DNA of 32,000 nucleotides from positions 630,001 to 662,000 of the forward strand of contig OZ245922.1 in assembly GCA_965229705.1 (NCBI GenBank), in the 5' to 3' direction. A program made the translations under genes and the position numbers. Within the stretch, counting starts at the first letter, position 1, and every line of letters begins with the position of its first letter. This DNA is from Candidatus Saccharimonadota bacterium (GTDB taxonomy: Bacteria > Patescibacteriota > Gracilibacteria > BD1-5 > UBA6164). The notes under the pieces were generated by a model. That model worked only from the letters and a program-made list of their open reading frames with translations. It was not told the origin of the DNA and did not search any database. Shown one piece after another: positions 6,465-31,266 of this stretch.

Positions 6465-7328
6465 ATGAAAAAAATCGTCTTATACATTCTACTGACTTGT
6501 CTCTGCTGATTTCTCGGATATCACTGAGTATACGCTAACTGACAAAGCGATATATGTGCAGGAAATGATAAAGAACAAACCTATAAGTGTCGCATCGAAA
6601 GCATTTGTAATGCTTATAAATCACCAAAACCCGTATATGTCACTCAGGCATATCTCCAAAACAATGACGATGAAGATGCAAAATGATGAACCATACTTGA
6701 GACTGCCAAAGAACGCTACAGAGAAAATATGTGAAATATTTATACATGTGCCATTATCCAAGCACAAAAAAATAGTCTCAAAAATCTCCAAGGTTTTCTC
6801 AAAGCTGAAGCATGATGAGAACTTGCACAAAACTTTTGATGACAAATAGAAATACGCCAAAACCGTCTCGATATCTCCGCAAATACGATCTGATGTACTC
6901 TCAGTGATAGAGAAAATGTCCAAAACAAGCTCAATATCCTCAAAGAAAGTAGTCATGAAACATGTAAATATGTGAATTATCTCGCATACCTTGATAGCTA
7001 CTATGACGATGTAGCAAGTATATATTCAGATGAGGAAAAACAAGAAGTGTATAAGAATATCCCAAATATCATTACTGATATTGAAACTCAGAATATCTCG
7101 AGCGATATCAACCGACTCAAGAATGCCCTCGCAGAAGAGCGATCTCACACTTTTCAAGTATTTCCTCTTGCCTATCAGGCGTATAGTGAATATGAAAACA
7201 CCTTCCCCATTCACTTTCTCCTCGAACTTATTGAGGCTGACTTCATTATATTGAGGCAAAAACTCTATGAAACACTTATGCCTCTCGCTCAACTAGGAAT
7301 CAAAATGATCAATGCGATGAGCTATTAA
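6465..7328 (+). CDS. Hypothetical secreted protein (signal peptide, several Cys), 287 aa
   Basis: One continuous frame contains 14 in-frame TGA codons, including four TGA-TGA doublets. It begins MKKIVLYILLTCLC.. and absorbs ORF 6972-7328. I recognised no family. Confidence 0.6.
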
Positions 7329-10152: not shown

Positions 10153-10154
10153 TT

Positions 10155-10571: not shown

Positions 10572-10701
10572 AATTTTTCTGTTATAAAAATAAAGCTGAA
10601 AGATATACGAAAAGTTTTTATGATTATTTCTCACAAAGAGAAAGGTTTGAGTTTTTTCGTATTTCTCTAGTATATGTCTTATACGGGAATAACAAAAAAA
10701 T

Positions 10702-11835: not shown

Positions 11836-11910
11836 GGAGAGTTGATTACCTTCATTTCAAGGAAGCTCTGAGAAGTAGGAAGTAATTTTCATATAAAATA
11901 TAAATACTTC

Positions 11911-13398
11911 TTACAATTCCCTCAAAAACCTCTCCTTGAGTTCTCGACACCTTGCTATATCAATTTTCTCAAGATTTTTTACGACAAACTGCTGCCTCCC
12001 CTTTTCAAACACGGCTCTATTATCAGCGACAAAACACCAGTAAAGATAATTATACGGGCAAGCATCGTCTGTATACTTTTCTTTTGGATTATGAGAACTA
12101 TACTGATAATAGTCCGACATTTTGTGGATATAATTCGCGCTTGCTACATATGGTTTTGTCGCAAGTTTTCCTCCATCAGCAAACTGACTCATTGCCAAAA
12201 CATTTGGCGTGACTACCCACTCAAAGGCATCAGTATAAAACTCGAAAAACCAATGATTGAGCTCATGGGGATCAAGATTTACAAGTAAAGCAAAGTTTCC
12301 AATAATCATCAGTCGCTGAATATGGTGACAGTAGTTATTTGCATGTACTTCTTTGAGCGCTTGAGCGAGAGGTAACACGCTACAAGTTTCTGGCTCTTTC
12401 CAAAAAAATGATGGTAAAGGTCTTATATGCTGGAAGAAGTTTTCCTGATATATACTATCTTTATAAAAGTGAAAAAAATGATACATATACTCTCTCCAAC
12501 CAAGTATCTGACGAATAAATCACTCCTTATTATTCATATCACTCTCTGTCTTTTCCACCATTTCTACGACTTCTCGTGGAGAGAGAAAGCCGTAGTTTAT
12601 TGAGCTTGAAAGCAGACTATGATGAACATATGGATCATCTTTGTACATCGCGTCTTCTAAAGCTCCAAAAGTATCAAGATGATGCTCTATAAAATATTGT
12701 AAAAGATCGAGCGCTTCTTCTCTATTTGTGATTATTGGTAACTCTTCTCTATATTGAGAAGATGCGTTTGGTGTGAAATCATAAAATTTTTCTGCTTCTT
12801 GTAAAAACTTGTTTTTCCCAATACTAAAATCCCAACTTTTTTGATGCTTTCTATCAAATTTTCTATTTTCTATATCATAGTTCCATATTCCTCCCTCTGG
12901 TTGACCATCGTCTTGCATGAGGATATATTCTTTTTTCCTCATAAATCTATAAAAATACTCCATAATAGGAGGTTTTGTATACTGTTTCCGAAACTCCTCA
13001 TGACTCAGAAAAAAAGAATAGGTATCAGGAAGAAACTCCAGTTCAACTCCAAAATCCTCAAGCTGTTTTTGTATTTTGAGAAAGTTTTCAAAAACATAGT
13101 TTTCACTTGGTTTTACTATGACAAATTTCAAAATATTATGCTTTTTTGCAAATTTTTTGAGTCAAGAAATGTAGGATTTTTCTTTGAGAAATTCTGCTAT
13201 TTTTCACTGCTTTTTTTGTTGTTGTATCATATACTTTCCTCCGGCATAATCTATGATCTTACTTCTGGTATTGAGCCGTAGATTTCTTCACTGAAATGTG
13301 ATTTTTCATATATGATGAATATACACGATATAACTCGTGTCTTGAATATATTCTTGGCGTAGTTGATGATACAATAAGATTTGTGCCGTTTTTTTCAT
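11911..13398 (-). CDS. Cryptochrome/photolyase-family protein of the FeS-BCP / 'deoxyribodipyrimidine photolyase-related' (PhrB/CryB, (6-4)-type) class
   Basis: ORFs 11911-12486 and 12520-13131 join through TGA 12520-12522, giving EGFIRQILGWREY. The N-terminus extends through four more TGA codons to ATG 13396-13398. Family blocks HHIQRLMIIGNFALL and ACPYNYLYW are present. Confidence 0.8.
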
Positions 13399-13548
13399 AT
13401 AAGATGATCAAAATATTGCACTTCATTATGAGATTATTGTAACTGAATTCAACCGTTAAATATAATTTTTTTCACAGTTTCCTCCATCTACCTCTTGTCA
13501 GTATTTTGAAAAAAAATATACTCTCAAAATACGATAACTCACTTTTTT

Positions 13549-14943
13549 ATGTATACACGCTCACTGTTCTGGTTCAGGCAAGATCTCAGAGTTTATGATA
13601 ATACAGGACTCTTTGAGGCAGTACAAAACTCCAGAGAAGTACTCCCCATCTTCATCCTTGACTCACATATAATCGAGGGATTTTGAGGGGTCAGTAACGA
13701 AAAATTTTGATTTATTCGTGAAGCCCTTGAAGATGTTTCACAAGAACTCAAAAAACTCTGATGAAACAAGCTTATTGTCTTTCATGGAAAACCTGAAGAA
13801 ATAATTTCTCGGCTAGTAAAACAGTACAAAATCGAATGCGTGTTTACCAATACTAGCTATGGAAGTTATGGGAAAAAGAGAGATGAAAAAATATCTCAAA
13901 TCTTGAGTGAATGAGACTGTCACTTTTCTTCTCATAAAGATTTTCTTATCGCAGAACCTCACGAAATAGAGCAAAGAAAAGTATTTACTCCCTACTACAA
14001 ACTCTGGCAAAAATACATTATAGAAAATCCTCAAAGCATCAAAATAGTCCCAAAAATCAACTCTTTTAACCAACTCAACACCAAAGAACAAAGTGAGGCT
14101 GGAGACTTTATCCCCAGCAAAAAACATCCCTACTTTACAATGGATTTTGGTCGTGAACGCTTTGCAAAACTTCCTTTTCCACAATACAGCGACAACAGAA
14201 ATAATCTTGATAGAGATGGGACTTCTCGACTTTCTCCCTATCTCAGATTTGGAATTTTTTCTGTCAGACAGATATATAATGCCGTTCTCTCATGAGACTC
14301 CCTGTCAACATTGACCCAAAGAGAGATACAACAAAAATGATTCCCAGAAAAATGAACACATGAAGAAAGCTTTATCAGTGAAATAGCGTGGAGAGAGTTT
14401 TGGTGGCAAATATTTTATAATTTTCCTAATACAAAAACCACCGAATTTCAAGAAAAACGAAGACATATACCTTGGTCTCAAGATACAGCGTTATTTCACA
14501 AATGGATGCATGGAGAAACAGGCTATCCTATAGTAGATGCTGCCATGAAACAGCTCAAAAAAACACACTGGATGCATGGAAGGGCTCGCATGATTGTAGC
14601 AAGTTTTCTCACAAAAGATATGCACCTTGACTGGAGACTTGGAGAAGCGTATTTTCGAGAAATACTTCTCGACTATGACGAGGCTGTCAATCTCGGAAAC
14701 TGGCAATGGTGAGCAAGTGTCGGAGCCGACCCAAAGCCACTTCGCATATTTAACCCTCTTTTGCAAAGCGAAAAGTTTGATTCCAAAGCAGTATATATAA
14801 AAAAATATCTCCCCGAACTCGAGCATGAAAACGCTGAGGATATTCATAATCCCCTCGACTCTTCCCTCAACTATCACGCACCTATTGTTGATCATCGCAT
14901 CGAGACAAAAATTGCGCGAGAAATGTATAAAATACCTGAATAA
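13549..14943 (+). CDS. phr: Deoxyribodipyrimidine (CPD) photolyase, class I / DASH-like
   Basis: Family blocks present: LFWFRQDLRVYDN, TSRLSPYLRFG, TGYPIVDAAMKQL..HWMHGRARMIVASFL and NLGNWQWGAS. Ten in-frame TGA codons. Stop is TAA 14941-14943. Confidence 0.88.
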
Positions 14944-18078: not shown

Positions 18079-18176
18079 TTAAGGAGCCTCTGAGAAACTC
18101 CTTTTTTCTCTCCTTTTCCAAAGGAGAGATGGCTTGATAGAGCCAGAGTGGATTGGAAAATTTTTGTTTTCTCGAG
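18079..18176 (-). repeat. MITE-like structured repeat, copy A (inverted relative to copies B and C; one terminal inverted repeat is degraded)
   Basis: The reverse complement aligns with 30683-30789 over nearly its whole length. Its left end is TTAAGGAGCCTCTGAGAAAC. The internal hairpin is CTCTCC-N9-GGAGAG. Confidence 0.8.
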
Positions 18177-18222
18177 ACCGGTCTCGAGTTACTTATTTCA
18201 AAGGCTTGAGACCGGTCTCTTA
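18171..18222. repeat. Two copies of the GC-rich 12-nt palindrome GAGACCGGTCTC (18174-18185 and 18208-18219); the first extends to the 18-nt palindrome CTCGAGACCGGTCTCGAG
   Basis: Read directly from the sequence. The site lies between the convergent 3' ends of nth and the 18254-18535 gene and is probably a bidirectional terminator. Confidence 0.6.
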
Positions 18223-18253
18223 GACAAGATTTTTCTATTTTGCAGAGCTTCTT

Positions 18254-18535
18254 TTATGCAAGTTCTGTAACCTTTTTGAGTTTTTCGCTGTCATGGCTTC
18301 TTTGAAGTTTTTGCATTTCCTGTCAGAGAGATACAACTTCTTCTGCTACAATATCACTGTTATCTGGATCGTCTTCCACAATTGCCATGAGTTTGGTTTG
18401 AAATTCTTGAAAACTCTGGAAAAATCTGGGATGTATTTTCTCCTTGAGATCATGAAATGTGTCTTGTAATTGGCGTTTTGACTTCTTTTTTTGTTGACTG
18501 TCGAAGTACTTTTGCAGTCACGAACTTACTACCAT
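18254..18535 (-). CDS. Hypothetical small helical protein (93 aa)
   Basis: ATG at 18533-18535 and TAA at 18254-18256. Two in-frame TGA codons. Charged, coiled-coil-like composition. Confidence 0.45.
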
Positions 18536-18553
18536 AAAAGGATTTATATATAT

Positions 18554-18850
18554 TTATTTTATAGAAGACTGTAGAGATTTGAGTTCTTGAGAACTCTCTG
18601 CGTAAAGTGTTCTTTTTTTTGCGAGGAATATTTTTTCTTCTATTTTTTTGAGCGTATTTCAGAAGAGTATTTGCTGTTCTTCAAAATGCTTTTCACGCAT
18701 TTTTTCGATATCAGTCATCACTCTGTGAGCATTTTCAAGAAAATTTTTTCTCTTATGTGGTGGAAGAAAAGAAAATATCTGCAGATACTCATGTCTATCT
18801 TTTTTGCTTATGTTCAAACTTTCAAAGATTTTTTGCAGTTCAGTATTCAT
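18554..18850 (-). CDS. Hypothetical small helical protein (98 aa)
   Basis: ORF 18659-18859 continues through TGA 18659-18661 to TAA 18554-18556. ATG 18848-18850 is preferred over the upstream TTG. Confidence 0.45.
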
Positions 18851-19044
18851 AGCTACCAAGAGTAATATAAACTTCTTTCAATATATAAAGAAAAAAAGAA
18901 AAAACTAATGTTTTGTGTATGAATATCATGAACATACATGAAGTACTCATATACTCTATCATACTTCTTTGAGAGGAACAAGGAATTATCATTGACTTTG
19001 TATTTGCCGTGCTTTTTAAACAGTCTCTGGAAAATAAAATTTTT

Positions 19045-19962
19045 TTAATACTTTTTTAATACTTCATATTTCTTAAACCAGGTTATCTGTCTTTTTGCAT
19101 AATTTCGAGAGTGTTGTTGAATCTTGCTTCTTAATTCTTCTCAAGAGATTTTTCCCTGAAAATATGAAAAAAACTCTTTATACCCTATAGTATTCATAGC
19201 AAAATCATCTTGCGTGTATCACTGTTGCATGAGTTTTTTAAGTTCTTCTTCAGCTCAAGATTCAAGCATTTTTTCTACTCGGGTATCAATTCTCTGGTAC
19301 AATTTCTCTCTATCAGAGAAATCTGGATGCAAAAACAGTACATCATACTTGAGTTTTTTTTCTGCGCGAAACTCTTGCTTTGACTTTCCTGTAGAGAGCT
19401 TCACTTCTATAGCTCTTTCTACATAAGGTCTATTGTTTGGATGAAGTTCTTTGGCGTACTCGGGATCTATTTCTTGAAGTTTTCGGTAAAGCTCCTGTTT
19501 TGTAAGCGTTTCTAGGCCTTTTCGTAAAAGGGTATTTGTAGAAACATCAGAGGCATTTCTCTCAAAAATAATACTATCTATATAGAGCCCTGTACCTCCT
19601 ACGAGCATTGGTATCTTTTTTCTTTGGTATAAGTTTTGTAGTATTTTTTCTGCCTGTCTCACAAATTCTCACAAAGAAAATACTTCATTTGGATCTACAA
19701 TATCTATCATGTGGTGTGGAATTCCTTGTTTTTCTTCTGATGTGATTTTCCCTGTTCAGATATCCATATTTCGAAATATCTGTCGTGAGTCAGCAGAAAT
19801 AATTTCTGTATCAAGGTATTTTGCAATATCGATACTCATCGCTGTTTTTCACGAAGCCGTTGGTCCATAAATAACAATCAGTTTGGGAAGCTCTGAAGGA
19901 GTTTTGAGGAAAGTGTCTATGAGTTTTGTATCTTGTAAAAGATGTTTCTTCGTCTCTATCAT
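19045..19962 (-). CDS. miaA: tRNA dimethylallyltransferase MiaA
   Basis: The P-loop is GPTASGKT, whose second Gly is TGA at 19849-19851 (complement). Other blocks: ISADSRQIFRNMDIGTGK and a C-terminal AKRQITWF. Six in-frame TGA codons. Stop is TAA 19045-19047. The start at ATG 19960-19962 is uncertain. Confidence 0.85.
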
Positions 19963-19994
19963 ATTTTTTCTGAGAAATCGAATTGGCAGTATCA

Positions 19995-20103
19995 TTAAAG
20001 AAACTCTGAAAAATAGAAAAATTTCTCATCCTCTCTGGCTCTATAGAGTCATCTCTCTTTTTACAAAGGAGAGAAAAAAATGAGCTTCTCAGAGCCTCCT
20101 TAA
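19995..20103 (+). repeat. MITE-like structured repeat, copy B
   Basis: Ends are TTAAAGAAACTCTGAAAAAT ... GCTTCTCAGAGCCTCCTTAA. Internal hairpins are GGCTC-TATA-GAGTC and CTCTCT-N9-GGAGAG. Collinear with copy C. Confidence 0.8.
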
Positions 20104-20167
20104 TATATCGAAAAAAATTTGACTTTCAAATAGCTCTCAATAATATCTGCTGCGCTATAGTAATAAT

Positions 20168-20243
20168 GCCACTTTAGCTCAGTTGGTAGAGCACTCGCCT
20201 TGTAAGCGAATGGTCGTCGGTTCAAGTCCGACAAGTGGCTCCA
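20168..20243 (+). tRNA. tRNA-Thr (anticodon UGU), CCA encoded
   Basis: Hand-folded cloverleaf. Acceptor stem GCCACTT/AAGTGGC, anticodon loop CTTGTAA, T-arm GTCGG-TTCAAGT-CCGAC. Confidence 0.9.
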
Positions 20244-20376
20244 TTCTTCGCTCTTTTCGCTATCGCTCATTCGAGTTTCGAATGCTGTAGCCATAAAATA
20301 GCAAAGAAAAACACACAAACTCAAGCGAAGGATGTCCTCCAAAGCTTTATGCGAAGGACGGACATTTTTACTTTTT

Positions 20377-20461
20377 GGGCAGATTCCAGAGCGGTCAAAT
20401 GGGGGGGACTGTAAATCCCTTGGCTTAGCCTTCGGGGGTTCGAATCCCTCTCTGCCCACCA
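20377..20461 (+). tRNA. tRNA-Tyr (anticodon GUA), long variable arm, CCA encoded
   Basis: Acceptor stem GGGCAGA/TCTGCCC, anticodon loop CTGTAAA, variable arm TGGCTTAGCC, T-loop GGTTCGAATCC. Confidence 0.9.
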
Positions 20462-20472
20462 TAATGTTTTAT

Positions 20473-20500
20473 GCCCAGGTGGTGGAATTGATAGATGTGC
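20473..20500 (+). pseudogene. Duplicated 5' fragment of tRNA-Leu (acceptor 5' strand plus D-arm only)
   Basis: The first 18 nt (GCCCAGGTGGTGGAATTG) are identical to 20593-20610 and the next ~10 nt differ only by transitions. No matching 3' acceptor strand (CCTGGGC) occurs before the intact gene. Confidence 0.6.
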
Positions 20501-20592
20501 GAAGCCATACTCCCGAACGAAGTGAGTGGGGTGCACGCGTTGCGTGTCGTCATCAGTCAGTTGAGAATCACATTACATGAATCATAGTTTAT

Positions 20593-20676
20593 GCCCAGGT
20601 GGTGGAATTGGTAGACACGCTGGTCTTAGAAACCAGTGCCTTTGGCGTGGAAGTTCGAGTCTTCTCCTGGGCACCA
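20593..20676 (+). tRNA. tRNA-Leu (anticodon UAG), type II, CCA encoded
   Basis: Acceptor stem GCCCAGG/CCTGGGC, anticodon arm CTGGT-CTTAGAA-ACCAG, long variable arm, T-arm GGAAG-TTCGAGT-CTTCT. Confidence 0.9.
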
Positions 20677-20837
20677 AGATCTCTGAAAAGAGATTATACC
20701 CAAAAAATTATGTTAAATTGACGGCATATCCAGTCTGCTCGATATATAACACTCTTTCTGATTTGCTGTAGCCTATCACAAGAGATACTTAATATTTTTT
20801 TGTACCGTATAAAGCGGGCAAGTAAAAACATATTTTT

Positions 20838-21104
20838 ATGAAAAAAGATATCCATCCTGTAAGTAGAAAAGTAGCATTTGTAGAAAACGGAAGTGGTTTT
20901 GTACTGATCACACATTCTACGGTAAAAACAGATACCACTCATACTCATGAGTGAGTAGAGTACCCAAGTGTGTATGTAGAAGTTAGTTCACAGACTCATC
21001 CTCATTATACAGGTGAGAAGAGGATTCTGAAAACTGGCGCTGTTGATAAGTTTTATGCTCGTCAGAAAAAAATGGAAGAAATGCAAAAAGCAAAGAAGAA
21101 ATAA
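20838..21104 (+). CDS. rpmE: 50S ribosomal protein L31 (Cys-free, type B-like)
   Basis: Begins MKKDIHPVSRKV and contains VEVSSQTHPHYTGEKR and GAVDKFYAR. One in-frame TGA. The protein has no Cys residues. Confidence 0.85.
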
Positions 21105-21397
21105 ATACTCTTACTTCAAAAAAATCCTAAATAATAAAACCATAGCCGCACTAAATGAAGACGTAAAAAATACAAAATCATACTCAAGTGTCGACGAACT
21201 TTTTGAAGATATCAATTCATAGAATACATGAAAGAAATCAAACAATCTACGGTTTTTACATTGGCTCGTCATCTTTGAAGCTACAAACACACATATTATT
21301 CTCCGAAGGACTGTTTCTCACAGTAACATATTTCGCTAAAAAGTTTGACTTCATTTTTTCTTCACTATAATCTCCCCTGCGTATTCATTTTTTGTTG

Positions 21398-21527
21398 AAG
21401 ACCGAAGGCAAAGATACATAAGACCTTCGCAGACAAAAGCGAAATATTTAAACACTCGTTTAAACTATCTCTCTTTTGTAAGAGAGATTTTTTTATGAAT
21501 ACATTGTAGAATATAATTTTTAGAATT
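21398..21527 (+). promoter_or_regulatory. Putative rplJ (L10) leader region
   Basis: The stem CGAAGG (21403-21408) / CCTTCG (21424-21429) is followed by an attenuator-like terminator hairpin directly upstream of rplJ. The call is an analogy to L10-leader autoregulation and was not modelled. Confidence 0.3.
21467..21494 (+). terminator. Intrinsic terminator or attenuator hairpin (ATCTCTCT-TTTGTA-AGAGAGAT followed by a T-run)
   Basis: Perfect 8-bp stem followed by T7, lying 34 nt upstream of the rplJ ATG. Confidence 0.6.
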
Positions 21528-22094
21528 ATGGCTGTTAGTAAACAACAAAAGACTGAGATACTCGCTGACCTGGTCTCAAAATTTACACATGCACAATCTA
21601 TTGGTTTTGCAGCAACAGATACTCTCACAGTAGAAGAATTTTGAAGCTTGAGAAACTCATTGCGAGAAGTACATGCGAGCTATACTATTGCGAAGAAAAC
21701 ACTCATCGTAAAAGCAATGAAAGATGCCCTAAACTGTGAAGTTGATCTTGCTCAACTCCCAGGGCAAATTTGAGTAGTATGTTCAAATGAAGATGCCGTT
21801 GCAGGTCTTGGGAAAGTAAATACTCTCGTAAAAGAGACAAAGGGAGAAAAAATCTCTTGGGTAGCAAGTTACATGGAGGGAAAAATGATGAATGCAGAAG
21901 AGACGCAAGCTCTCGCAAGTCTTCCTGCAAAAAATGTTCTTCTTGGGCAACTTGTTGGCGTGATATCTGCTCCACTGACAAAACTTGCTGGAACACTTGA
22001 CGCAACTGTCGCTGGTATTGTTCGGGTTACAAAATCTGCTGGTGATAAAGCTCGAGAAGCAGGGAAAGAAAAGCTTGCTGATATAGCAGTATAA
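21528..22094 (+). CDS. rplJ: 50S ribosomal protein L10
   Basis: Begins MAVSKQQKTEILADLVSKF. Two in-frame TGA codons. Absorbs ORF 21873-22094. Located upstream of rplL. Confidence 0.88.
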
Positions 22095-22254
22095 TTTTTG
22101 AAACTTGTGTAGTAATTCTTTTTTTGTCCGATGAAGAAAAGAGTTACTCACTAGCTGCAAAAAGCTAGAAAATGTCATCTTGTCCCGAGGCTGGGACAAG
22201 CTTCCTAAGTTTGGGAAAAGATGACAATACTTTATATACTAACTTTAAAAGACC

Positions 22255-22653
22255 ATGTCTGAAGAAGTAAAACTCAGTGCAAACGCACAAAAAGTTCTTG
22301 ATCTTGTATCAGATCTTAGTGTTCTCGAAGTTGCTGATCTCGTAAAAGCAATGGAAGATACATTTGGTGTAACTGCTGCAGCTCCAGCAGCGGTAATGGC
22401 AGCTCCAGCAGCTGGTGGTGAAGCAGCTGGTGGTGAAGCTGAAAAATCAAGCTTTAATGTAGAGCTCACAAATGCTGGTGGACAAAAGATTGCTGTTATT
22501 AAGGTAGTAAAAGAGATCACTGGTCTCGGTCTTGGTGAAGCAAAAACCCTCGTTGATAACGGATGAGTTATCAAAGAAGGAGCATCAAAAGATGAGGCTG
22601 AAGAAATCAAAGGAAAACTTGAAGAAGCTGGAGCAACTGTTGAATTAAAATAA
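22255..22653 (+). CDS. rplL: 50S ribosomal protein L7/L12
   Basis: Has the Ala-rich hinge and the block [23 protein letters not shown] 22255-22566 continues through TGA 22564-22566 to TAA 22651-22653. Confidence 0.92.
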
Positions 22654-22666
22654 GTTTTTTCATAAG

Positions 22667-22712
22667 AAAAAGTCGAAAGTTCCACCACTCTTTCGACTTT
22701 TTTCTTTTTTTT
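22667..22712 (+). terminator. Intrinsic terminator after rplL
   Basis: The stem AGTCGAAAG/CTTTCGACT has a 10-nt loop and is followed by TTTTTCTTTTTTTT. Confidence 0.7.
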
Positions 22713-22774
22713 GCATTTGCAGTTTTATCTTTATACTTCATTCTACTTTTCTCAGAAGTAAACAAAATATACAT

Positions 22775-22848
22775 TGGGGTATGGCCAAGTGGTAAGGCAG
22801 GGGACTCTGAATCCCTGATCGGGGGTTCGAATCCCTCTACCCCAGCCA
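22775..22848 (+). tRNA. tRNA-Gln (anticodon CUG), CCA encoded
   Basis: Acceptor stem TGGGGTA/TACCCCA, anticodon arm GGGGA-CTCTGAA-TCCCT, T-loop GGTTCGAATCC. Closely resembles the E. coli tRNA-Gln architecture. Confidence 0.88.
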
Positions 22849-22862
22849 AAAAAATAAAAAAA

Positions 22863-22896
22863 AGTACTCTTGAGAGTACTTTTTATGTTTTTTATC
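22863..22896. terminator. Hairpin AGTACTC-TTGA-GAGTACT with flanking A-run and T-run (bidirectional terminator)
   Basis: Lies between tRNA-Gln (+) and the 3' end of the minus-strand gene 22905-23378. Confidence 0.55.
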
Positions 22897-22904
22897 GTAA
22901 TACT

Positions 22905-23378
22905 CTAACTCTCAAGATTTACAAACTCTGTTCTCTCTCCATCAAGATCAGCTCACAGCTTATAGAGCTTGACTCACTCTGGGTGTTGACCAAGAGTATT
23001 GAGAAAAATATCTTTTTCATCTCCGTATGGAATCACAAGTTTTGCCTCGATATTTTCAAAAATCTTCACAGCATCTTTTGTCCCAATAATTATAAGTATA
23101 TCTACATCTCAAAAAAAAGCAACTATTTCTTCCTTGAGATCAAAACTCTCGCTTGTTACAATACAGATATGCTTTCCATCAATAAGAAATTTGTAGAAAA
23201 GAATATCTGTATACTTTTTTACTTCTAAGAGATTCCCTGACTTTTCATATTCTCATGGATGAGACACATCCACATCTTCGAGAAATACTTTTTTTGTATT
23301 ATAGTCAAAAAACACTTCTTTTTTTTCCGTATTTTTAATACTGAGAGTTGATGGATTTTTATAGCTGATTTCTATCAT
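22905..23378 (-). CDS. Hypothetical protein (157 aa)
   Basis: ATG at 23376-23378 and TAG at 22905-22907. Four in-frame TGA codons. The frame was checked codon by codon. It only vaguely resembles MBL-fold proteins, and no HxHxDH motif is present. Confidence 0.5.
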
Positions 23379-23458
23379 AGTTTAAAAAAAATATTAATAA
23401 TAAGAGAAAAACTCATTTTTTAGGAAACTCTGAGAAAATTCTCATTTCTCAAAAATGT

Positions 23459-23911
23459 CTATACAAAGAAAAGTTTATTTCGATAAATAATACCCGACAG
23501 ATCAAACCTCACCGAAAAGTCTTGGATTTTCTCAACATCAATCCACTCATAACCAACAAATCGTTCGTCTTTTCGAACGTAGGGTTTTTTCTTTCCTGTA
23601 TACTTTACGATAAATAGGTATACATCTTTATCTATCATTGGACTTCACTCAAGGTAGGCAGCAGTATAAGTATAATTGAGTTTACTCACAAACTTTATTA
23701 TCTCAAGATCATGAGTGTTGAGACCTGCTTCTTCGGATATTTCTCTGAGAGCAGCATCCTTGGCAACTTCACCTGACTCTATTTTTCCTTTTGGAATAAC
23801 AAACTCAAGCTTATTAGCAGAGTTTCTCCACTTTAAAAGCAGTATCTCAATATTTCCATTTTTCTTTCTATACACAATGCCTCCTGAACTTGTTTCGTGC
23901 TTTTTTGGCAT
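23459..23911 (-). CDS. NUDIX hydrolase
   Basis: The NUDIX box reads GKIESGEVAKDAALREISEEAGL. ORF 23645-23911 continues through TGA 23645-23647 to TAG 23459-23461. Confidence 0.8.
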
Positions 23912-24047
23912 AATTTTTTTTCAGGCTACGGTACATTAGCTAAATAGTATCAAAAAACAGCTGAAAATCAAGTTTCATATTTTGCGAAAAGAGGAAAAAG
24001 TGTGCTATCATAGCATTACCAACAAAAATAAAAATACAAATACTCCT

Positions 24048-25013
24048 ATGAATACACAACAAGATATTTTAGCATCTGTGTATCTCGATGATGAAATTTT
24101 ACAAAAAACACCATCGGATAGCATAAACTTCTTCGAAGAAGTGAGCATGCAAGAAGATCAAGAAGCTCTATCCTCTTCACAAAAAAGTAGCCCTTTGATA
24201 TCTGAGAAAATACGCACTGGAGCATACGCTTTTTTGAGATATATCTGAACTTCTGCTTGTATATTTCTTGTCCTCTTAGTAGGGACAAACTACAAAGCCT
24301 ACTCAAGTATTGCCTATAGCTTCATATTTTCGTGAGAAATGCAAGAAACCCAAAAGGCAATCGTCAACTCAGTACACGCAGCAAATATTGATAAAGCTTC
24401 TTCAGAGTCTTCTCAGCTCGAAAATACTTTCTCACAGCTCGAAGATGATGTCATGCTTGATGCTCGATTTCTCAAAGAAAAACATTCTATTAGTAGACTC
24501 ACTCACAAAGCAAATACTGAAAGTGTGATTCCAAATATTGAGATTACTCCCTATGAAAATCGTATTATTATACCGCGAATCGGAAAAAATATTCCTCTCA
24601 TAGATATCGTCAATACCCATGTTGACGGAAGTGATGAACTTGAAGATATTTTTATGGATGAGCTCGAAGATGGTGTAGTGCGTTATCCTGGAAGTGGAAA
24701 ACCAGGCCAATGAGGAAATGCGTTTATATTTGGTCATTCTTCCAATTTTCCATGGATGAAATGAAACTATAATGATGTTTTTGCGCTTTTAGATCATGTT
24801 GTCTATTGAGATGAAGTCATTGTTTATTATAATCAAAAAAAATATATCTATAAAATCTATGGAAAAGAAGTCATTCGTCCTGGTAATGTTTCTGTTCTGC
24901 ATAGTGATGATAAGCAAGATTCTCAAATAACACTGATGACTTGCTGGCCAATTGGAACAACGCTCAATAGACTCATTGTCACATGAGATCTTATTTCTGT
25001 AAGCAAAGGATAA
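24048..25013 (+). CDS. Sortase-family transpeptidase with an N-terminal TM anchor
   Basis: ORFs 23982-24248 and 24339-24713 and the downstream sequence lie in one frame with 7 in-frame TGA codons. The catalytic contexts are FIFGHSSN, ITLMTCWP (TLxTC) and NRLIVTG. Stop is TAA 25011-25013. Confidence 0.8.
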
Positions 25014-25054
25014 TGATAGGATTTTTACATACATACAAGAGCTTTGAAGAGGTC

Positions 25055-25297
25055 ATGATGCTTTGAGGTATGCTCTACGAAGATGTGCTATTTCAGGGGT
25101 TTATGATTTTATGAATATCTATCCTACTACTTGTTCTCGTTTCTATTTGTGTTCCTTTCATCCTTTTCTACCTTTCTCAGAAAGAAAAGAAAAGAGAAAA
25201 ACAAGAAAAGAAGAAACTTCTCACACAAATCCTCATGCAAAAAGAACTTGAAAATGAGGTCGAAAAAGAGATAGAAGATCAAGAAAATAAGCTATAA
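25055..25297 (+). CDS. Hypothetical small membrane protein with a Lys/Glu-rich tail (80 aa)
   Basis: ATG at 25055. One TM helix (ISILLLVLVSICVPFILFYL). Three in-frame TGA codons. Stop is TAA 25295-25297. Its 3' end overlaps the convergent gene by 6 nt. Confidence 0.4.
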
Positions 25298-26776
25298 CTC
25301 TTTATACCACTGAGAAAATGTCATATCATGGTGTTTGAGATAGCTTGCAAGCTCGATTCATACATACCTCCAGTGCCACGGCTCTCTATCGTATCCATCT
25401 ACTTCTCTTCCATTTTGATAACTTTGATGAAAGCCGTATCTATGCGCATTTTCACGAAACCATGCATATCTGGCTGTAAGCTCTGTGTCATTTAACCATT
25501 TTTCATGTGTAGAAGCTGACCATATATCAATTGCTAAACCAGACTGATGTTCCGAGTGACCTGCCTTGGCACAAAGATAGTCCGGACATCAGCGAGACTT
25601 GATACCTACCTGATAGTCATAACTCCGATAACTACTCACAACTACCACTTTTTCACCTGTATCTTCAAAGTATTTTTTTGCCAGTGCCTCAAACTCGAGA
25701 GCTGCCTTTTTCCGCATTTTCGCATCTCATTTTGTATCTACTATGTGTTCTAGTGAAAGAGACTGCATATCTTGTGGGATATACTGTATATCCTCAAACG
25801 GAATATCTGGACTGACATATTTTACAAAACTCTCATCAGAAGAATAATCAAGCGATGTAAGTATATTTTGGAGATCATGCTCTTGTAGATCACTGGTATC
25901 TACTATATCGTATACAGGGATACTTCTCCCTTGAGCAAAAAAATTCCAAACTTTTTCATATACTCTATGACTTGCCAGCATTCAAAAATGATCCGCATCA
26001 GGAATATCCAAAAAATAGGTTTTGGCACTTCGAGGAATTTCTGAAAGCGCTTTTCCGTGGCGTTGATGAATGATCCTATCTTTTGCTCCATGAAATATAA
26101 ATACTTCTGCCTGTGTTTTTGTAATATTTTCTTCACTCACAAGCGTATTGGGTAAAAAGAAAAATCTTTGTAGAGCAAAACCAAATCTATCACGGGCAAG
26201 TTCATAACGACTCAGGTATGGCGCCTCGAGAACAATTTTTGGAAAGTTTTTTCCTTGAGCAAACTCAAGAGCCACTCCTGTTCCAATAGAATAACCATAT
26301 AAAAAAGTATTTTCCTCACTCAAAGCAAATGATGATTGTGCATAACTATAGAGGAGTTCGGCGTGTTCTTGCACCTTGTCTGCATGAGGAAACCCGCCAG
26401 ATTGCCCATAACCAGGGTACTCTAGCGCAAGAACATTATACCCCATTCGAGAAAGCCTTGCTATATCATGATAAAAAAAACCTATATCACCTCCATTTCC
26501 ATGAAAATAGTAGATGGTATGCGATTTTTTATTATCTATATATATTCCATATACTCTATCTCCTGCCTTATCTTCGAGATATATCCCCTGCAAATTATTA
26601 AAACGATAGTTCTCTGAAAGTATATGCTCTTCAGGAGTAGTATGAACATACACTCCTGGAAAACTGAAAAATGTTTCTATGTTTCGAGCAAGCAATAAAG
26701 TGACAAGGTATACTATCAAAAGACCAAGAAAAAAGAAAGAAATCATAATAAGGAAAGAATAGTATTTTTGTATCAT
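25292..26776 (-). CDS. Fusion protein: TM anchor, alpha/beta hydrolase domain, then a VanY-type (M15B) D-alanyl-D-alanine carboxypeptidase domain
   Basis: ORF 25982-26776 (GYSIGTG nucleophile elbow, HGAKD, DADHF) ends at TGA 25982-25984, in frame with ORF 25727-25981. That frame runs through three more TGA codons (25727-25729, 25589-25591, 25358-25360) to TAG 25292-25294. The C-terminal half carries SSYRSY, SEHQSGLAIDI and EPWHWRY. Confidence 0.75.
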
Positions 26777-26807
26777 GGGAGTGTAAAATTATTTTCAGAT
26801 CTATTCT

Positions 26808-28661
26808 TTATGATGCTGTTTTGCAGTGATCAGAAACAACACTATTTCCTATTTGCTTATACCTCTCATAAAAATCTTCCACAAATTTTCTGACATGTTC
26901 CTGTTTTGGAAAATATACACCTTTTTCTCTTACCGTATATTCAAACAAAAAGTTTCCTGCCTCCATCTGCTGAAGATAGGTAAATATTTGCTGCGTATAC
27001 ACTGCAGTATATAACTCTCTCAAAGCCTGAATATTCTCCTCACTCATATGAAGACATATCTGTCATCACTCATAGCTTATGAGCCCCGACTGAAAGAATA
27101 TATGCAAATGTATCAAGCACTCACAATAATACGGAATAATATCTTCTACTTCTCTATACCTCATCATTTTTATCGAACGCATAAGGTGCGTGATGAGTAT
27201 ATGCTCATCAAGAGGAGACGGTCATTTCAAAAAATATGCTACAAGTCCACCAGCAGTTGCCTTGAACTCTTCGATGTTTTTAAAAAGTCCTTTTTCTCAT
27301 ATCTTGATTTCACATCATGGAGTGAGCCATAGCGTATGACCATATTCATGCCCTATGGTTTCTCTATCATATACTTGATAATACTCTTCTTCTGAACCGT
27401 TGAGAAAGTCATAATATTTCTGTAAAATCTCTGCAGATATCATCTCCTGATCAATCTGCATTTTTGGAAGAGATCTTTGAGAGTCAAGCACATACTTTGG
27501 AAATGCAAATATCTTTTTCCCATACACCTTACTCACCTCATCATCATTTGGAACAACCTGAGCGCTATACGCTCAACAAAGAAACGACCCATAAGCAAGC
27601 ACTGGAGCACTAATATAGAGCTGTACTTTTTGTTGGTTTTTTAAAGAGTATTCATAGCTTTCTGGAAAATTTTCTCTTCCTATCTCATCATACATTCACT
27701 CATACATATGTAGTACATCTGCTGATACTTGTGAACGAAAAAGACTTGGATCAAGAAGACGCATATCAAACTCGATAGATACTGCGCGGCGATACCTATC
27801 CTCATAGTATTCTATCGGATGACCTGGTTGCACAGGAGTATCTATTGCCATCCATTTTCTATCTACTTCTGCCCATTTTTCAACAAGTAGGTGTGTATGT
27901 GTTTCACTCAGAGCATTTTTTATTGATGAGAAATATTCTCTGTATGCTGATTTTCTATCAAATACCGTATCATCGAGCTTATCAAGCTGCTCTATAAACT
28001 CATCATACAGCGCTGATATTTCTGAAATATCTTCTGGGAAATGCTCTTTATAAGAGAGAGATACATATGAGTTTTCCTCTAGTGTGAGGATAGAGTATGA
28101 TCTATCTGCCGTCAATCCGTAGTGTCACGGATCAAAAAGCTGGTTTTCTGCAAGGTAATCCATGACCGCATCATGATCTCCATGAAACTGCTTTTCCAGT
28201 TGTCTATTGGTCTCAAATAAGAGTTTTCTATTCCACTTTAAAAAAAGTCGTGAGTAACATTTTCCAAGTTTATGAGTATAGAGAAATATTGTTCTGTAAA
28301 AATCTGTTAAAAGACTTTCAGAGTATATGTCTTCTATCATTTTTCATTGAAGAGCCTCATAATATTCTTGCACAAAACGATAGGAGAGTTCAAAAGCTCT
28401 GTCTCTTTCTTCTTGTGTTTTTCATATTTTTTCGAGATAGATATCAAGAGCTTCAAACTTTTTTTGTCCGATACGAGTAGCTGCAGCAAAGTATGTTTCT
28501 TCGTTTTTGTCGAGTTGCAGTACATCTAAGATATCATCGAGCACTTTTCTCTGCCAGTTATTTTTTGAGATTCCCTCTGAAAGACTGTTGAGGTGTTGCT
28601 CATTTTTTTGAAAAAGTTCATGTATACGAGAAACATCTTGTAGAAATGCTGATGTATTCAT
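26808..28661 (-). CDS. Large (617 aa) zinc-metallopeptidase-like protein, HEYGH...EEFKAT (DPP III / M49-like, tentative)
   Basis: Five listed ORFs (28422-28661, 28125-28340, 27696-28115, 27315-27536, 26808-27047) share one frame and are bridged only by TGA codons. The bridging segments were checked codon by codon. ATG at 28659-28661 and TAA at 26808-26810. Confidence 0.75.
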
Positions 28662-28717
28662 ATGATATTTTTATGTATTTTCCGTGCCTGGTTAGTATAT
28701 TATTTTCTGATAAAAAT

Positions 28718-30424
28718 CTACTTTTTCTTCCATCCATAGCTGATATTTTGACTCCTTTTTTTATCTCATGAAAACTTTCCTCAGGAAAATCATCTATGCC
28801 CTCATCTTCTTCAAGAAGATCAGTAAGAAGCTGACGAAGAGTCTCTTCCCTTTGCCTGAACTACAAGAGGTTTTCTCCTATTTTTTACTTTATAAAAATC
28901 TAGTACCACCGCCGCAACATCGGGATGAACATTCATATATGAAAATTTTTCTAAGATATCTATTTTCCCCACATCTCCCAAACGAATACCAACCTCGTCT
29001 TCGAGGAAGCGTATCAGTGTTCCTGGATTCATTCCGTCTATTTTTCCTTTTGCAATAAAAAGTCTCTGTTCTCCTGTTGGTGAAATATGAGGTCCCCTCT
29101 CAGAAATAACACTGTATGAAGACTCATCAAATCGTTTTTCATACGCATCTTTGAGAAGAGAGGCAACAATAACTTCTGCTTCTCAAAGCGTGAGAAGCTC
29201 GAGTGCGAGGCTATCAAATTTTTCATATCATCCTCCTCAAATACTGTGAGTGAGGCGCTGTATTAGTCTCTTTTTTTGCAATGATACTACATCTTTTGCG
29301 CTTGGAATTTGTTGTTTTTGTATTTTTTGTTTGAGGAGTCTCTCTATAGCAAAGAGTTTTCGCATATCTATTCGTGAGACAAATGAGATGGCAGTTCCTG
29401 TTTTGCCTGCTCTTGCCGTTCTTCCAATACGATGAGTATAGGTTTCTGCGTTATCTGGAAGAGAATAATTCACAACATGCGTGAGATCATCAACATCTAT
29501 TCCTCTGGCAGCTACATCTGTTGCTACGAGTATTTTGCTCTTTCCTGACTTAAATCGGGCTAATATTTTTTCTCTGTGTTTTTGCTCAATATCTCCATGT
29601 ATTCCCTCTGCCTTGAGTCCTCTTGCCATCAGTCCTGAAGCAACTTCATCAGTATCCATCTTGGTTTTACAAAATACGATCCCATAAAAATCTTCTGTTA
29701 TATCTATCACGCGTGAGAGTGCTTCAAACTTATTTCTTGGAGAGACTTCATATAAGATTTGCGTGATTCTCTCGGAGATGCTTGTTTTGGACTCGATTTT
29801 TACGGTTTCATAGTCTCCCATGTGTCGCTTAGCAATAGTGAGTATTTCTCGAGGCATAGTAGCAGAAAAGAGCAGAGTCTTTTTATTTTCAGGGGTGTAG
29901 CTCATGATTTCTTCTATTTCTTCTCTGAAACCAATATTGAGCATTTCATCTGCCTCATCAAGGATAAAGTAATCTATATCTGCAACTTTAAGAGTCTTTT
30001 TAACGACGAGATGATCTGTGATTCGTCCTGGAGTTCCGACAACAATATGAGGTCCGTTCTTGAGCGATCTGACTTCGTCTCGGATATTTTGTCCTCCATA
30101 AAGAAGTGTTATTTTGACTCAAGCGTCTGCAAATGATCCTATTTCTTGAGCGACTTGTATTGCGAGCTCTCGAGTGGGAGTGAGAATCATAGCTTGTATC
30201 CCTGCTTTGCTCATATCGAGTTTATCGAGTAATGGAAGTCAAAAACTCGCTGTCTTTCCTGTCCCTGTCTGGGCTTGTCCGAGAACATTTTTTTCTCCTG
30301 AGAGTAGGAGTGGTATCACTCAAGCTTGTATGGGGCTTGGGTGTTGGTAGCCTTTTTTTTCTATTGCTTGAAGGAGTGTTTCTGAGAGTCAAAGGTCTCG
30401 GAAATGTAGAGTCTGTTCTGTCAT
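28718..30424 (-). CDS. DEAD-box ATP-dependent RNA helicase with a DbpA-type C-terminal RNA-binding domain and a Gly/Arg/Ser-rich tail
   Basis: Motifs present: Q-motif, AQTGTGKT, PTRELA, DEAD (LDEADEM), SAT and HRIGRTARAG. The N-terminus extends from ORF 29237-29944 to ATG 30422-30424. The C-terminus continues through ORF 28820-29032 to TAG 28718-28720. Confidence 0.9.
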
Positions 30425-30682
30425 AGTAATTTTACAAAAAAATAAAGAGACATATCTCTCTCTCATAGTGAGTGAGTGTCATACACAAAATAATTATTCA
30501 AAAATCTCGCCTAAAAGAGATATTTCTGATAATCGGTATTTTGTAGAAGAAATGTCTCTTTGTGGAATATGCTTTGCATATCTATGTCGAGCGGGACTAT
30601 ACAAAGAAAAAAATGTAAAGCAAGCTTTTTTGAAAAAAGTATTGTTTTTTCTATTTTTATGTATATAAAATATTTACACTTC

Positions 30683-30789
30683 TTAAGGAACCTCTGAAAA
30701 ACGAAAATTTTCTAATCCACTCTGGCTCTAACGAGCCATCTCTCCTTTGCAAAAGGAGAGAAAAAAGGAGTTTTTCAGAACTTCCTTAA
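30683..30789 (+). repeat. MITE-like structured repeat, copy C (most complete copy)
   Basis: The terminal inverted repeats are TTAAGGAACCTCTGAAAAAC ... GTTTTTCAGAACTTCCTTAA (17 of 20 positions complementary). Internal hairpins are GGCTC-TAAC-GAGCC and CTCTCC-TTTGCAAAA-GGAGAG. Confidence 0.85.
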
Positions 30790-30843
30790 TGAAGCGAGTT
30801 AAACTTTTAATCTCGCTTCATGAGAGGCGAAGAAAGGACTAAA

Positions 30844-30999
30844 ATGGACCTAAATACAGATAATTTTTTCGCAATGCTTCTAATACTCTTGGTTATTAGT
30901 TTATCAGATTACTTCCAAGAAAAAATTTGGGTGAAATATATGAAATATGTAATCTTAGGATTGATTCTTGGATTCTCTTTGCCAATTATCTGATTATAG
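30844..30999 (+). CDS. Hypothetical small membrane protein (51 aa)
   Basis: ATG at 30844. Two hydrophobic segments. One in-frame TGA. Stop is TAG 30997-30999. A strong terminator follows. Coding status is uncertain. Confidence 0.3.
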
Positions 31000-31012: not shown

Positions 31013-31040
31013 AAAAAGGAGCGTTATAACGCTCCTTTTT
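31013..31040. terminator. Bidirectional intrinsic terminator (perfect palindrome AAAAAGGAGCGTTATAACGCTCCTTTTT)
   Basis: Read directly from the sequence. Lies between convergent genes. Confidence 0.8.
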
Positions 31041-31041
31041 A

Positions 31042-31266
31042 CTATTTTATTATATTCTTCCAGTTCATAATACTCAGCACATACCCTGCAGCAAGTCCCC
31101 AAAAAAACATATACACCCATACATCAAGTGATAAAAGCACTGGGAAAGCCTTTGCAATCCAAAGTGTTGAAAAAACAATCATCAACTTAAATATCATTAT
31201 GTCACGAATTGTCATTCTATGAAGCGTGTCCATAGATTCTTGGATATATCTTTGGTAAAAGTTCAT
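31042..31266 (-). CDS. Hypothetical small membrane protein (74 aa)
   Basis: This is the 3' part of ORF 31042-31365. The start is placed at ATG 31264-31266 because the upstream part overlaps the MAPEG gene, whose stop is at 31317. Two TM helices. Confidence 0.35.
   Translation of the reverse strand: MNFYQRYIQESMDTLHRMTIRDIMIFKLMIVFSTLWIAKAFPVLLSLDVWVYMFFWGLAAGYVLSIMNWKNIIK

What the first reader, a model, noticed from the sequence alone, without database searches (positions are those of the whole stretch)
18079..30789. Family of ~107-nt MITE-like elements with inverted-repeat ends and conserved internal hairpins (3 copies in 32 kb)
The copies lie at 18079-18176 (inverted), 19995-20103 and 30683-30789, and they align by eye over essentially their full length with most positions identical. 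The ends are imperfect terminal inverted repeats beginning and ending in TTAA (TTAAGGARCYTCTGARAAA ... TTTYTCAGARCYTCCTTAA). Two internal hairpins keep their pairing despite substitutions between copies. The first is GGCTC-N4-GAGCC in C versus GGCTC-N4-GAGTC (a G-U pair) in B. The second is CTCTCC-N9-GGAGAG in A and C versus CTCTCT-N9-GGAGAG (a U-G pair) in B. Together with the terminal stem, this gives a three-way-junction-like RNA fold. All copies are intergenic: 3' of nth, between the miaA start and the tRNA cluster, and in the long 5' region of the DEAD-box helicase gene. The window contains no transposase. The element could be a non-autonomous MITE (Correia/IS630-like, TA/TTAA target) or a structured small-RNA or regulatory family, and I do not recognise it.
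Basis: seen in the sequence. Interest (0 to 1): 0.7.

Follow-up and report, generated by a model that had tools for sequence, protein, structure and literature searches.

The report
Mosaic MITE-like repeat family in Gracilibacteria
The three look-alike ~107-base intergenic sequences are real copies of a small, lineage-specific, non-coding palindromic repeat that behaves like a decaying miniature transposable element, not like a conserved RNA gene; this is a known kind of thing, apparently not yet described in this bacterial group.

Summary
The repeats are real and far beyond chance. The description needs three corrections.

- **Copy A is longer.** It spans 18079-18256 on the minus strand. A 69-nt module (Y, two GAGACCGGTCTC palindromes) pushes its far arm outwards.
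- **The family is mosaic.** The layout is L-end, optional Y, core X (the two hairpins), R-end.
- **The window holds more traces.** There are decayed remnants at 19015-19044 and 23419-23452, and an empty site at 7325-7328.

The host is a Candidatus Gracilibacteria genome in which UGA is a sense codon. A 96%-identical sister strain has seven loci. All five substantial loci covered in both genomes differ in structure between the two. One difference is a 107-nt presence/absence bounded exactly by the TTAA termini, and the empty site keeps a single TTAA.

No copy turned up in about 73 kb from the nearest other Gracilibacteria, in pattern scans of three large DNA collections, or in Rfam.

Pairing is 90% kept, but covariation does not exceed shuffles. 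Wobble changes show no strand bias (10 against 12), and copies lie in either orientation in every kind of intergenic context.

Best reading: a non-autonomous MITE-like element with a TA or TTAA target duplication that decays by slippage deletions. No partner transposase was found. One oddity remains: core X is better conserved than the arms.

The parts
30683..30789 (+). Copy C, full L-X-R form (107 nt). L arm 30683-30702, hairpin 1 30723-30738, hairpin 2 30739-30761, R arm 30770-30789. TTAA at both ends.
   Evidence: RNA fold -41.5 kcal/mol, z -7.0; 125 bits. It lies between the divergent DEAD-box helicase gene (minus strand) and a small plus-strand ORF. It is absent from the sister strain, where a ~250-nt stretch (about 30643-30897) has no counterpart.
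19995..20103 (+). Copy B, L-X-R form (109 nt), between the miaA start (minus strand, 19962) and tRNA-Thr (20168).
   Evidence: 118 bits. At the same site and with identical flanks, the sister strain carries L-Y-R: core X is replaced by module Y.
18079..18256 (-). Copy A, composite L-Y-X-R form (178 nt). R arm and X at 18079-18159, Y at 18160-18228, L arm at 18229-18256. The outer TAA (18254-18256) serves as the stop codon of a 93-aa minus-strand gene.
   Evidence: (I5). The sister copy lacks 34 nt of Y, i.e. one of the two palindromes.
18160..18228 (-). Module Y: two 12-nt perfect palindromes GAGACCGGTCTC (18174-18185 and 18208-18219), bracketed by an AAAAAT direct repeat.
   Evidence: 2 matches against 0 expected; found only inside elements A and sister B across all DNA held.
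19015..19044 (+). Remnant of copy D: the L arm only, just 3' of the miaA stop codon.
   Evidence: The sister strain has a full 118-nt copy here (L001 10925-11042). The window lacks 91 nt lying between two A-runs.
23419..23452 (-). Remnant: R arm plus a fragment of the L arm, between the NUDIX gene stop and the next gene.
   Evidence: (D5). It is present in both strains. The corresponding spacer is 30 nt shorter in relative L006.
11857..11878 (+). Possible L-arm remnant (TCAAGGAAGCTCTGAGAAGTAG). Weak.
   Evidence: 3 mismatches out of 19; 17.4 bits, E 0.5. Not established.
7325..7328 (.). Empty site: a single TTAA, whose TAA is the stop codon of gene 6465-7328, at the place where the sister strain carries the 107-nt copy G.
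   Evidence: Window: GCTA TTAA GGAAGAT. Sister: GCTA TTAA GGAAGTTCTG...CAGAGCCTCC TTAA AGGAAGAT (L009 1806-1912).

Best explanation
This is a lineage-specific family of small non-coding mosaic palindromic repeats. It behaves like a non-autonomous transposable element (MITE).

**Structure.** A unit is two imperfect 20-30-nt terminal inverted repeats (TTAAGGARSYTCTGARAAAC ... GTTTYTCAGARSYTCCTTAA) around a core X. X holds two adjacent hairpins, GGCTC-N4-GAGCC and TCTCTCCTTT-N3-AAAGGAGAGA. Some units also carry module Y (two GAGACCGGTCTC palindromes) between the L arm and X.

**Inferred mechanism.**
- A transposase encoded elsewhere in the genome recognises the inverted ends.
- It inserts the unit at TA/TTAA sites, which are often the TAA stop codon at a gene end, and duplicates TA or TTAA.
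- Copies then decay quickly. Replication slippage between short A/T runs and between the flanking duplications, helped by the hairpin-forming palindrome, removes modules, arms or whole units.

**Shown:** the family, its boundaries, its mosaic forms, its restriction to this lineage in the DNA examined, and structural turnover between strains that includes one terminus-precise presence/absence.

**Inferred:** transposase-mediated insertion, the size of the duplication, and the slippage mechanism.
For: **A real, sharply bounded family**
- establish the copies and their boundaries.
- Seven loci plus two remnants lie in roughly 64 kb of non-redundant sequence from two strains. If that density holds, the 1.0-Mb genome would carry on the order of 100 copies. 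That figure is an extrapolation.

**Ends**
- The ends are inverted repeats. TTAA is present at 11 of the 14 outer ends of copies A-G: all but A's L end, both ends of D and E's L end, with the sister forms of A and B ending the same way.

**Precise polymorphism**
- Copy G is a 107-nt presence/absence whose endpoints are the element's own termini.
- The empty site keeps one TTAA, and the flanks differ by a single A.

**Context and orientation**
- Copies sit between convergent, divergent and co-directional genes, in either orientation.

**Turnover between strains**
- All five substantial loci covered in both 96%-identical strains differ in structure.
- The deletion junctions lie at short direct repeats: AAAAAT, A5-7, and the two GAGACC palindromes.

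**Distribution**
- The family is absent from relatives: about 73 kb was searched with the model, best hit 18.7 bits.
- Exact-pattern scans of genome, metagenome and viral collections found nothing.

**Folding and strand bias**
- Most copies fold as one long hairpin, as single-stranded DNA or as RNA, with z-scores of -5 to -8. B folds weakly and E moderately.
- Transition mismatches show no strand bias: 10 G-T against 12 A-C. That fits a DNA palindrome and does not fit an RNA read from one strand.
Against: - No transposase with matching ends was found. Only about 90 kb of the two strains could be read, because the source genome is withheld from the look-ups.
- The duplication cannot be sized: TTAA is itself a palindrome, so it could equally be part of the inverted repeat.
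- The one clean polymorphism cannot be polarised, because no outgroup is available. Deletion between TTAAGGAAG and TTAAAGGAAG explains it slightly better than fresh insertion, which would need an extra 1-nt indel.
- No insertion can be shown to be recent.
- Core X is more conserved (89.5% mean pairwise identity) than the arms (69-75%). This is the reverse of what is expected if only the transposase-binding ends mattered.
- One compensatory G-C to T-A change occurs in hairpin 1 of copy E.
Confidence: 0.7

Rival explanations
1. A structured small RNA or cis-regulatory RNA family. The terminal stem plus two hairpins would form a three-way junction that acts in the transcript, for example as a processing site, stabiliser, attenuator or regulator.
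For: - Copy C folds strongly as RNA.
- Hairpin 2 is invariant apart from U-G wobbles, and hairpin 1 shows one compensatory change.
- Core X is the best conserved part.
- Hairpin 1 followed by TCTCTCCTTT matches a loose terminator pattern in all three window copies.
Against: - There is no Rfam match, even at permissive thresholds.
- Covariation measures do not exceed shuffles.
- G-U and A-C mismatches are balanced, 10 against 12, so neither strand is favoured.
- Copies occur sense and antisense to the flanking genes, and in promoter regions with no upstream gene (B and C).
- No consistent promoter or U-tract terminator lies inside the unit.
- In a strain 96% identical, C is absent, X of B is deleted and G is optional.
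Confidence: 0.1
2. A host-maintained palindromic repeat of the REP/BIME/ERIC type. It would be spread by recombination, gene conversion or a REP-associated (RAYT-type) transposase. Core X, and perhaps Y, would be a binding site for a DNA-binding protein such as a nucleoid protein, a topoisomerase or a restriction-modification-related factor.
For: - Mosaic module structure.
- The core is more conserved than the arms.
- Y consists of perfect 12-18-bp palindromes typical of protein operators.
- Module content differs at the same locus between strains.
Against: - The long non-palindromic inverted arms and the terminus-precise presence/absence with a retained TTAA are what transposition with a target duplication predicts. 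REP/RAYT elements have neither terminal inverted repeats nor target duplications (from general knowledge of those families).
- The module differences are fully explained by deletions between short repeats.
- No candidate binding protein or RAYT gene was seen in about 90 kb.
Confidence: 0.12
3. Chance resemblance of low-complexity AT-rich intergenic DNA, or an assembly artefact.
For: The genome is 36% G+C and its intergenic DNA is A/T-rich, so short matches such as TCTGARAAA also occur outside the elements.
Against: - Full-length matches score 97-125 bits, and no shuffle reaches the observed counts.
- The same loci are present in an independently assembled sister genome from a different data set.
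Confidence: 0.01

Closest known systems
RUP (Repeat Unit of Pneumococcus), a MITE of Streptococcus pneumoniae
   Same: It is a simple element of about 107 bp with terminal inverted repeats and target duplication. It is intergenic, present in many copies, and thought to be mobilised in trans by an IS (IS630-Spn1) with similar ends (PMC3049150, as read).
   Different: RUP's sequence was not on hand, so no direct comparison was made. The present family is mosaic (optional Y, and an R-hairpin-R form), no cognate IS is known, and the host is a Gracilibacteria genome with reassigned UGA.
BOX elements of S. pneumoniae (boxA-boxB(n)-boxC)
   Same: Modular build with variable module content between copies, inverted-repeat ends and a highly base-paired structure. 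Classed as MITE-like (PMC3049150).
   Different: The modules and sequences are different. BOX varies by tandem boxB number, whereas here variation is presence or absence of X or Y through deletion.
ERIC/IRU elements of enterobacteria
   Same: Imperfect palindromes of about 127 bp in intergenic transcribed DNA. Shorter forms arise by internal deletion and longer forms by insertions of about 70 bp at fixed internal sites (from my own knowledge). That parallels the 69-nt Y module sitting at a fixed position.
   Different: There is no sequence relation. ERIC is conserved across genera, whereas this family was found in only one species-level lineage. ERIC has RNA-level effects (an RNase E site; PMC3049150) that were not tested here.
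Correia elements (CREE/NEMIS) of Neisseria
   Same: About 100-155 bp, with long terminal inverted repeats and a TA target. They sit at gene boundaries and form hairpins in transcripts (PMC3049150, and my own knowledge).
   Different: There is no sequence relation. Correia promoters, IHF sites and RNase III cleavage have no demonstrated counterpart here.

Membership tests
MITE (miniature inverted-repeat transposable element) | Small (under about 300 bp) and without coding capacity | tested here: met
   Units are 79-178 nt and contain no ORF.
MITE (miniature inverted-repeat transposable element) | Terminal inverted repeats | tested here: met
   In C the arms are 31 nt and 77% complementary (I15). 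The terminal helix is paired in about 83% of cells across 7 copies.
MITE (miniature inverted-repeat transposable element) | Target-site duplication flanking each copy | tested here: inconclusive
   TTAA is present at 11 of the 14 outer ends of copies A-G. Copy E has TTAG on its right and CTTA on its left. The empty site keeps one TTAA. Because TTAA is itself palindromic, a TA duplication, a TTAA duplication and membership of the inverted repeat cannot be told apart. One extra A sits at the occupied site.
MITE (miniature inverted-repeat transposable element) | Multiple dispersed copies in one genome | tested here: met
   The window has 3 copies plus 2 remnants in 32 kb. The 58.7-kb sister contig has 6 copies plus 1 remnant. 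A whole-genome count was not possible.
MITE (miniature inverted-repeat transposable element) | Insertion polymorphism with endpoints at the element termini | tested here: met
   Copy G: L009 1806-1912 is occupied, window 7325-7328 is empty. Direction, insertion or precise excision, is undetermined. The other three polymorphisms (C, D and the B modules) are imprecise deletions.
MITE (miniature inverted-repeat transposable element) | A cognate autonomous IS with matching terminal repeats | tested here: inconclusive
   None was found in about 90 kb of the two strains. The one IS seen (rve-type transposase, L008 about 2268-3695) has ends no more similar to the element's than shuffled sequences are. 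The rest of the genome could not be read.
IS630/Tc1-mariner-derived MITE (Correia- or RUP-like) | TA duplication, and ends matching an IS630-family transposase gene's ends | not testable with these tools
   TA and TTAA cannot be separated (see above), and no IS630-type gene is available from this genome. A 4-bp YTAR duplication with GG-starting ends, as in IS5-group elements (from memory), fits equally well.
Any Rfam RNA family | A score at or above the family's gathering threshold | tested here: not met
   Only the four tRNAs pass. At permissive E-values, the best hits over the elements are 19-21 bits to unrelated eukaryotic models.
REP/REPIN (RAYT-mobilised) | A short REP palindrome with a conserved 5' tetranucleotide, inverted doublets, no target duplication, and a RAYT gene | tested here: inconclusive
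   The arms are not themselves palindromes. The Y palindromes occur only inside the element. No RAYT gene appears in the annotated loci, but the genome was not fully readable.

The most novel reading that the evidence does not exclude
Core X, two adjacent hairpins about 50 nt long, is kept at about 90% identity while the arms drift. It may be a functional cargo and not just filler. For example, it could be a protein-binding DNA or RNA module (or, with Y, an operator-like palindrome) that the element distributes to gene boundaries across a 1-Mb genome with reassigned UGA. The family would then be a host-exploited regulatory or architectural element with no described counterpart in Gracilibacteria or related ultra-small bacteria.
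Probability: 0.15. Interest if true: 0.55.

Novelty: new member of a known kind. Interest (0 to 1): 0.3.

Why it matters
- **A gap in what is known.** Ultra-small bacteria with reassigned UGA are usually described as streamlined. The full-text searches I ran found no account of an interspersed repeat family in Gracilibacteria or Patescibacteria.
- **Scale.** A family at roughly one copy per 10 kb would make up about 1% of a 1-Mb genome.
- **Strain variation.** It would be a main source of structural difference between close strains: all five substantial loci covered in both strains differ at 96% identity.
- **Practical nuisance.** It can disturb assembly, binning and gene calling. Two examples are seen here. 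A stop codon is supplied by the end of copy A. The 316-aa MiaA model (the source-genome protein found by the cluster look-up) starts inside the end of copy B.
- **Limits.** Beyond that, this is an ordinary kind of selfish DNA.

Tried and rejected
- **Pattern scans.** The core and right-end patterns were scanned exactly against genome contigs (2 scans), metagenome contigs (2) and viral contigs (3). There were no true hits. The single hit, in a Bdellovibrionota MAG, lies in ordinary sequence with no other element feature.
- **BLAST.** Searches of annotated plasmids and phages returned nothing.
- **Source genome.** Its proteins, from the 1,006,762-nt contig, are not retrievable. No whole-genome count or transposase hunt was possible.
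- **The rve-type IS in the sister strain as the parent element.** Rejected, because the similarity between its ends and the element's is at chance level.
- **Terminator or promoter function.** Hairpin 1 matches a loose terminator rule, but B and C have no upstream gene and D is antisense to miaA. Promoter-like hits do not exceed shuffles.
- **Flanks resembling the element's own ends, as a sign of end-targeted insertion.** The best case is the 3' end of the 93-aa gene beside A. That is native coding sequence, conserved in a relative that lacks the element. The idea was dropped.
- **Extra TCTGARAAA motifs outside the elements.** 6 were found against about 3.4 expected, which is not significant.
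- **Relatives at 64-81% protein identity (L004-L006, L010, L011).** No copies were found, so they gave no outgroup for polarising the polymorphisms.

Full report
**Host and setting**

The window has 35.8% G+C. Reading UGA as sense raises the total length of ORFs of at least 100 aa from 3,688 to 14,151 residues. Every gene examined has in-frame TGA codons. The best MiaA and DEAD-box helicase relatives are all Candidatus Gracilibacteria.

The source is a 1,006,762-nt contig.

A sister strain was recovered almost completely, as loci L001, L003, L007, L008 and L009. It is ENA sample ERZ25074195, a 58,691-nt contig. It is 95.6-96.9% identical to the window over the aligned parts.

**The observation**

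- B (19995-20103) and C (30683-30789) are as described.
- The third copy starts at 18079 on the minus strand.
- The core pattern occurs 3 times against 0 expected, and the end pattern 7 times against 0.27 expected.
- A covariance model built from five copies scores the window copies at 99-125 bits.
- Mean pairwise identity among six independent copies is 75% in the L arm, 89.5% in the core, 69% in the R arm and about 30% in the 10-nt flanks.

The unit is therefore sharply bounded at its TTAA ends.

**Corrections**

*Copy A is 18079-18256.*
- That insert holds two perfect GAGACCGGTCTC palindromes.
- The true L arm follows at 18229-18256. It is 90% matched to the L arm of B (I5).
- Its terminal TAA is the stop codon of a 93-aa gene.

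*The window holds further traces.*
- An L-arm remnant lies at 19015-19044.
- An R-arm remnant lies at 23419-23452.
- A doubtful remnant lies at 11857-11878.

**A mosaic family**

Comparison with the sister strain shows four modules in the order L, Y, X, R. The forms seen are:

| Form | Copies |
|---|---|
| L-X-R | B, C, D, E, G |
| L-Y-X-R | A |
| L-Y-R | sister copy at the B site |
| R'-hairpin 2-R (79-nt palindrome) | F |

Y occurs only inside elements.

**Turnover between two strains 96% identical**

All five substantial loci covered in both genomes differ:

| Locus | Window | Sister strain |
|---|---|---|
| A | two Y palindromes | lost 34 nt between them |
| B | kept X, lost Y | kept Y, lost X, with identical flanks |
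| C | present | region absent, within a ~250-nt imprecise indel |
| D | 30-nt remnant after a 91-nt deletion between A-runs | full copy |
| G | single TTAA (7325-7328) | 107-nt unit (L009 1806-1912) |

At B, the junctions lie at AAAAAT and A5-6 repeats.

At G, the endpoints coincide with the element's termini, and the right flank differs by one A. This is the one terminus-precise presence/absence. It fits either of two events:
- insertion with a TA/TTAA duplication, or
- precise excision by slippage between the flanking direct repeats TTAAGGAAG and TTAAAGGAAG.

No outgroup was available to decide between them.

**Distribution**

The new sister-strain sequence added copies E, F and G. That gives seven loci plus two remnants in about 64 kb of non-redundant sequence. 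If the density holds, the genome carries on the order of 100 copies, which is an extrapolation.

Evidence that the family is restricted:
- About 73 kb from the nearest other Gracilibacteria (helicase 79-81% identical, MiaA 66%) contains no copy. The best score is 18.7 bits, E 0.2.
- Exact-pattern scans of 185,579 species genomes, JGI metagenomes and IMG/VR gave nothing real.
- Plasmid and phage BLAST gave nothing.
- Rfam has no match.
- Full-text searches found no description of such repeats in Gracilibacteria or Patescibacteria.

**Structure: DNA palindrome or RNA?**

Most copies fold as one long stem enclosing the hairpins, as RNA or as single-stranded DNA, with z-scores of -5 to -8. B folds weakly and E moderately.

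Across seven copies:
- 90.4% of cells form standard pairs.
- The covariation measures do not exceed column shuffles. Three pairs are changed on both sides, a count that 129 of 500 shuffles reach.
- The one clear compensatory change is G-C to T-A in hairpin 1 of copy E.
- Of the mismatches caused by transitions, 10 would be G-U wobbles on the plus-orientation strand and 12 on the other. Neither transcript orientation is favoured.

Context and orientation:
- Copies lie between convergent genes (A, G), divergent genes (B, C) and co-directional genes (D, E, and the 23419 remnant).
- Copies lie in both orientations relative to those genes.
- Promoter-like and terminator-like matches are not consistent.

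These results argue against a dedicated RNA gene or cis-regulator. They favour a DNA-level palindromic mobile element.

**What remains unexplained**

Core X is better conserved than the arms. This is unusual if only the transposase-binding ends matter. Three explanations are possible:
- selection on X;
- hairpin-templated correction within palindromes;
- faster slippage in the A/T-rich arms.

No gene start lies at a suitable distance, so I treat this as a curiosity.

**Partner transposase**

None was found. The sister strain carries one IS with an rve-type transposase that is only weakly like IS481/IS3. The similarity of its ends (CAAGAAGACCCTGAAA) to the element's ends is at chance level.

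Whether the family depends on an enzyme that duplicates TA (IS630-like) or YTAR (IS5-like) cannot be decided from TTAA ends alone.

**Verdict**

- The finding is real, with corrected anatomy.
- It is best filed as a new, lineage-restricted, mosaic MITE-like repeat family.
- It works like RUP, BOX, ERIC and Correia elements (PMC3049150) but shows no match to any annotated or curated sequence searched here.
- It appears to be decaying more than actively spreading over the divergence sampled.
- Confidence in this reading is about 0.7.
- Interest is modest (0.3).
- The conserved core leaves about a 15% chance of a more interesting function.

Noticed in passing
L008 3889-4449 (sister strain): A tandem array with a 102-nt period and 5.5 copies at 96% match. 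It consists of tRNA-Pro(UGG)-like units: ARAGORN calls four tRNA-Pro genes plus one tRNA-Gly. It sits directly beside an IS. This could be real tRNA amplification, repeated integration scars, or an assembly artefact.
   Followed up: partly
L008 75-3695 (sister strain): A 706-aa protein with a reverse-transcriptase domain (RVT_1) lies next to a ~1.4-kb IS. The IS encodes a 422-aa rve-type transposase with only weak IS481/IS3 matches. Its 24-nt inverted ends read CAAGAAGACCCTGAAA, with an extra internal copy of the left end.
   Followed up: partly
window 22891-22900 and 31040-31051: The sister strain has two small extra genes at these junctions. One is a 141-aa ORF just 3' of the tRNA-Gln terminator (L001 6649-7074). 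The other is a 163-aa Bro-N domain protein (L003 9144-9635). These are strain-specific gene indels unrelated to the repeat.
   Followed up: partly
window 11911-13398: The 495-aa photolyase-related (DPRP) gene is intact in the window. In the sister strain it is truncated to 171 aa by a cluster of TPR-repeat genes (L009 about 8011-13928).
   Followed up: no
window 18254-18256 and 19993-19995: The element's ends interfere with gene models. The stop codon of the 93-aa gene beside copy A is the element's terminal TAA. The 316-aa MiaA model (the source-genome protein found by the cluster look-up) starts at an ATG overlapping the last base of copy B, whereas the conserved start is MIETKK at 19962.
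   Followed up: yes
window 18079-18087, 20095-20103 and other element ends: The element's termini read TTAAGGAGG and CCTCCTTAA. No start codon lies at a suitable distance, so the significance is unknown.
   Followed up: partly
window 31013-31040: A strong bidirectional terminator-like hairpin, AAAAAGGAGCGTTATAACGCTCCTTTTT, with a 12-bp stem. It lies between the small ORF downstream of copy C and the MAPEG gene, and shows what a genuine terminator looks like in this genome.
   Followed up: no
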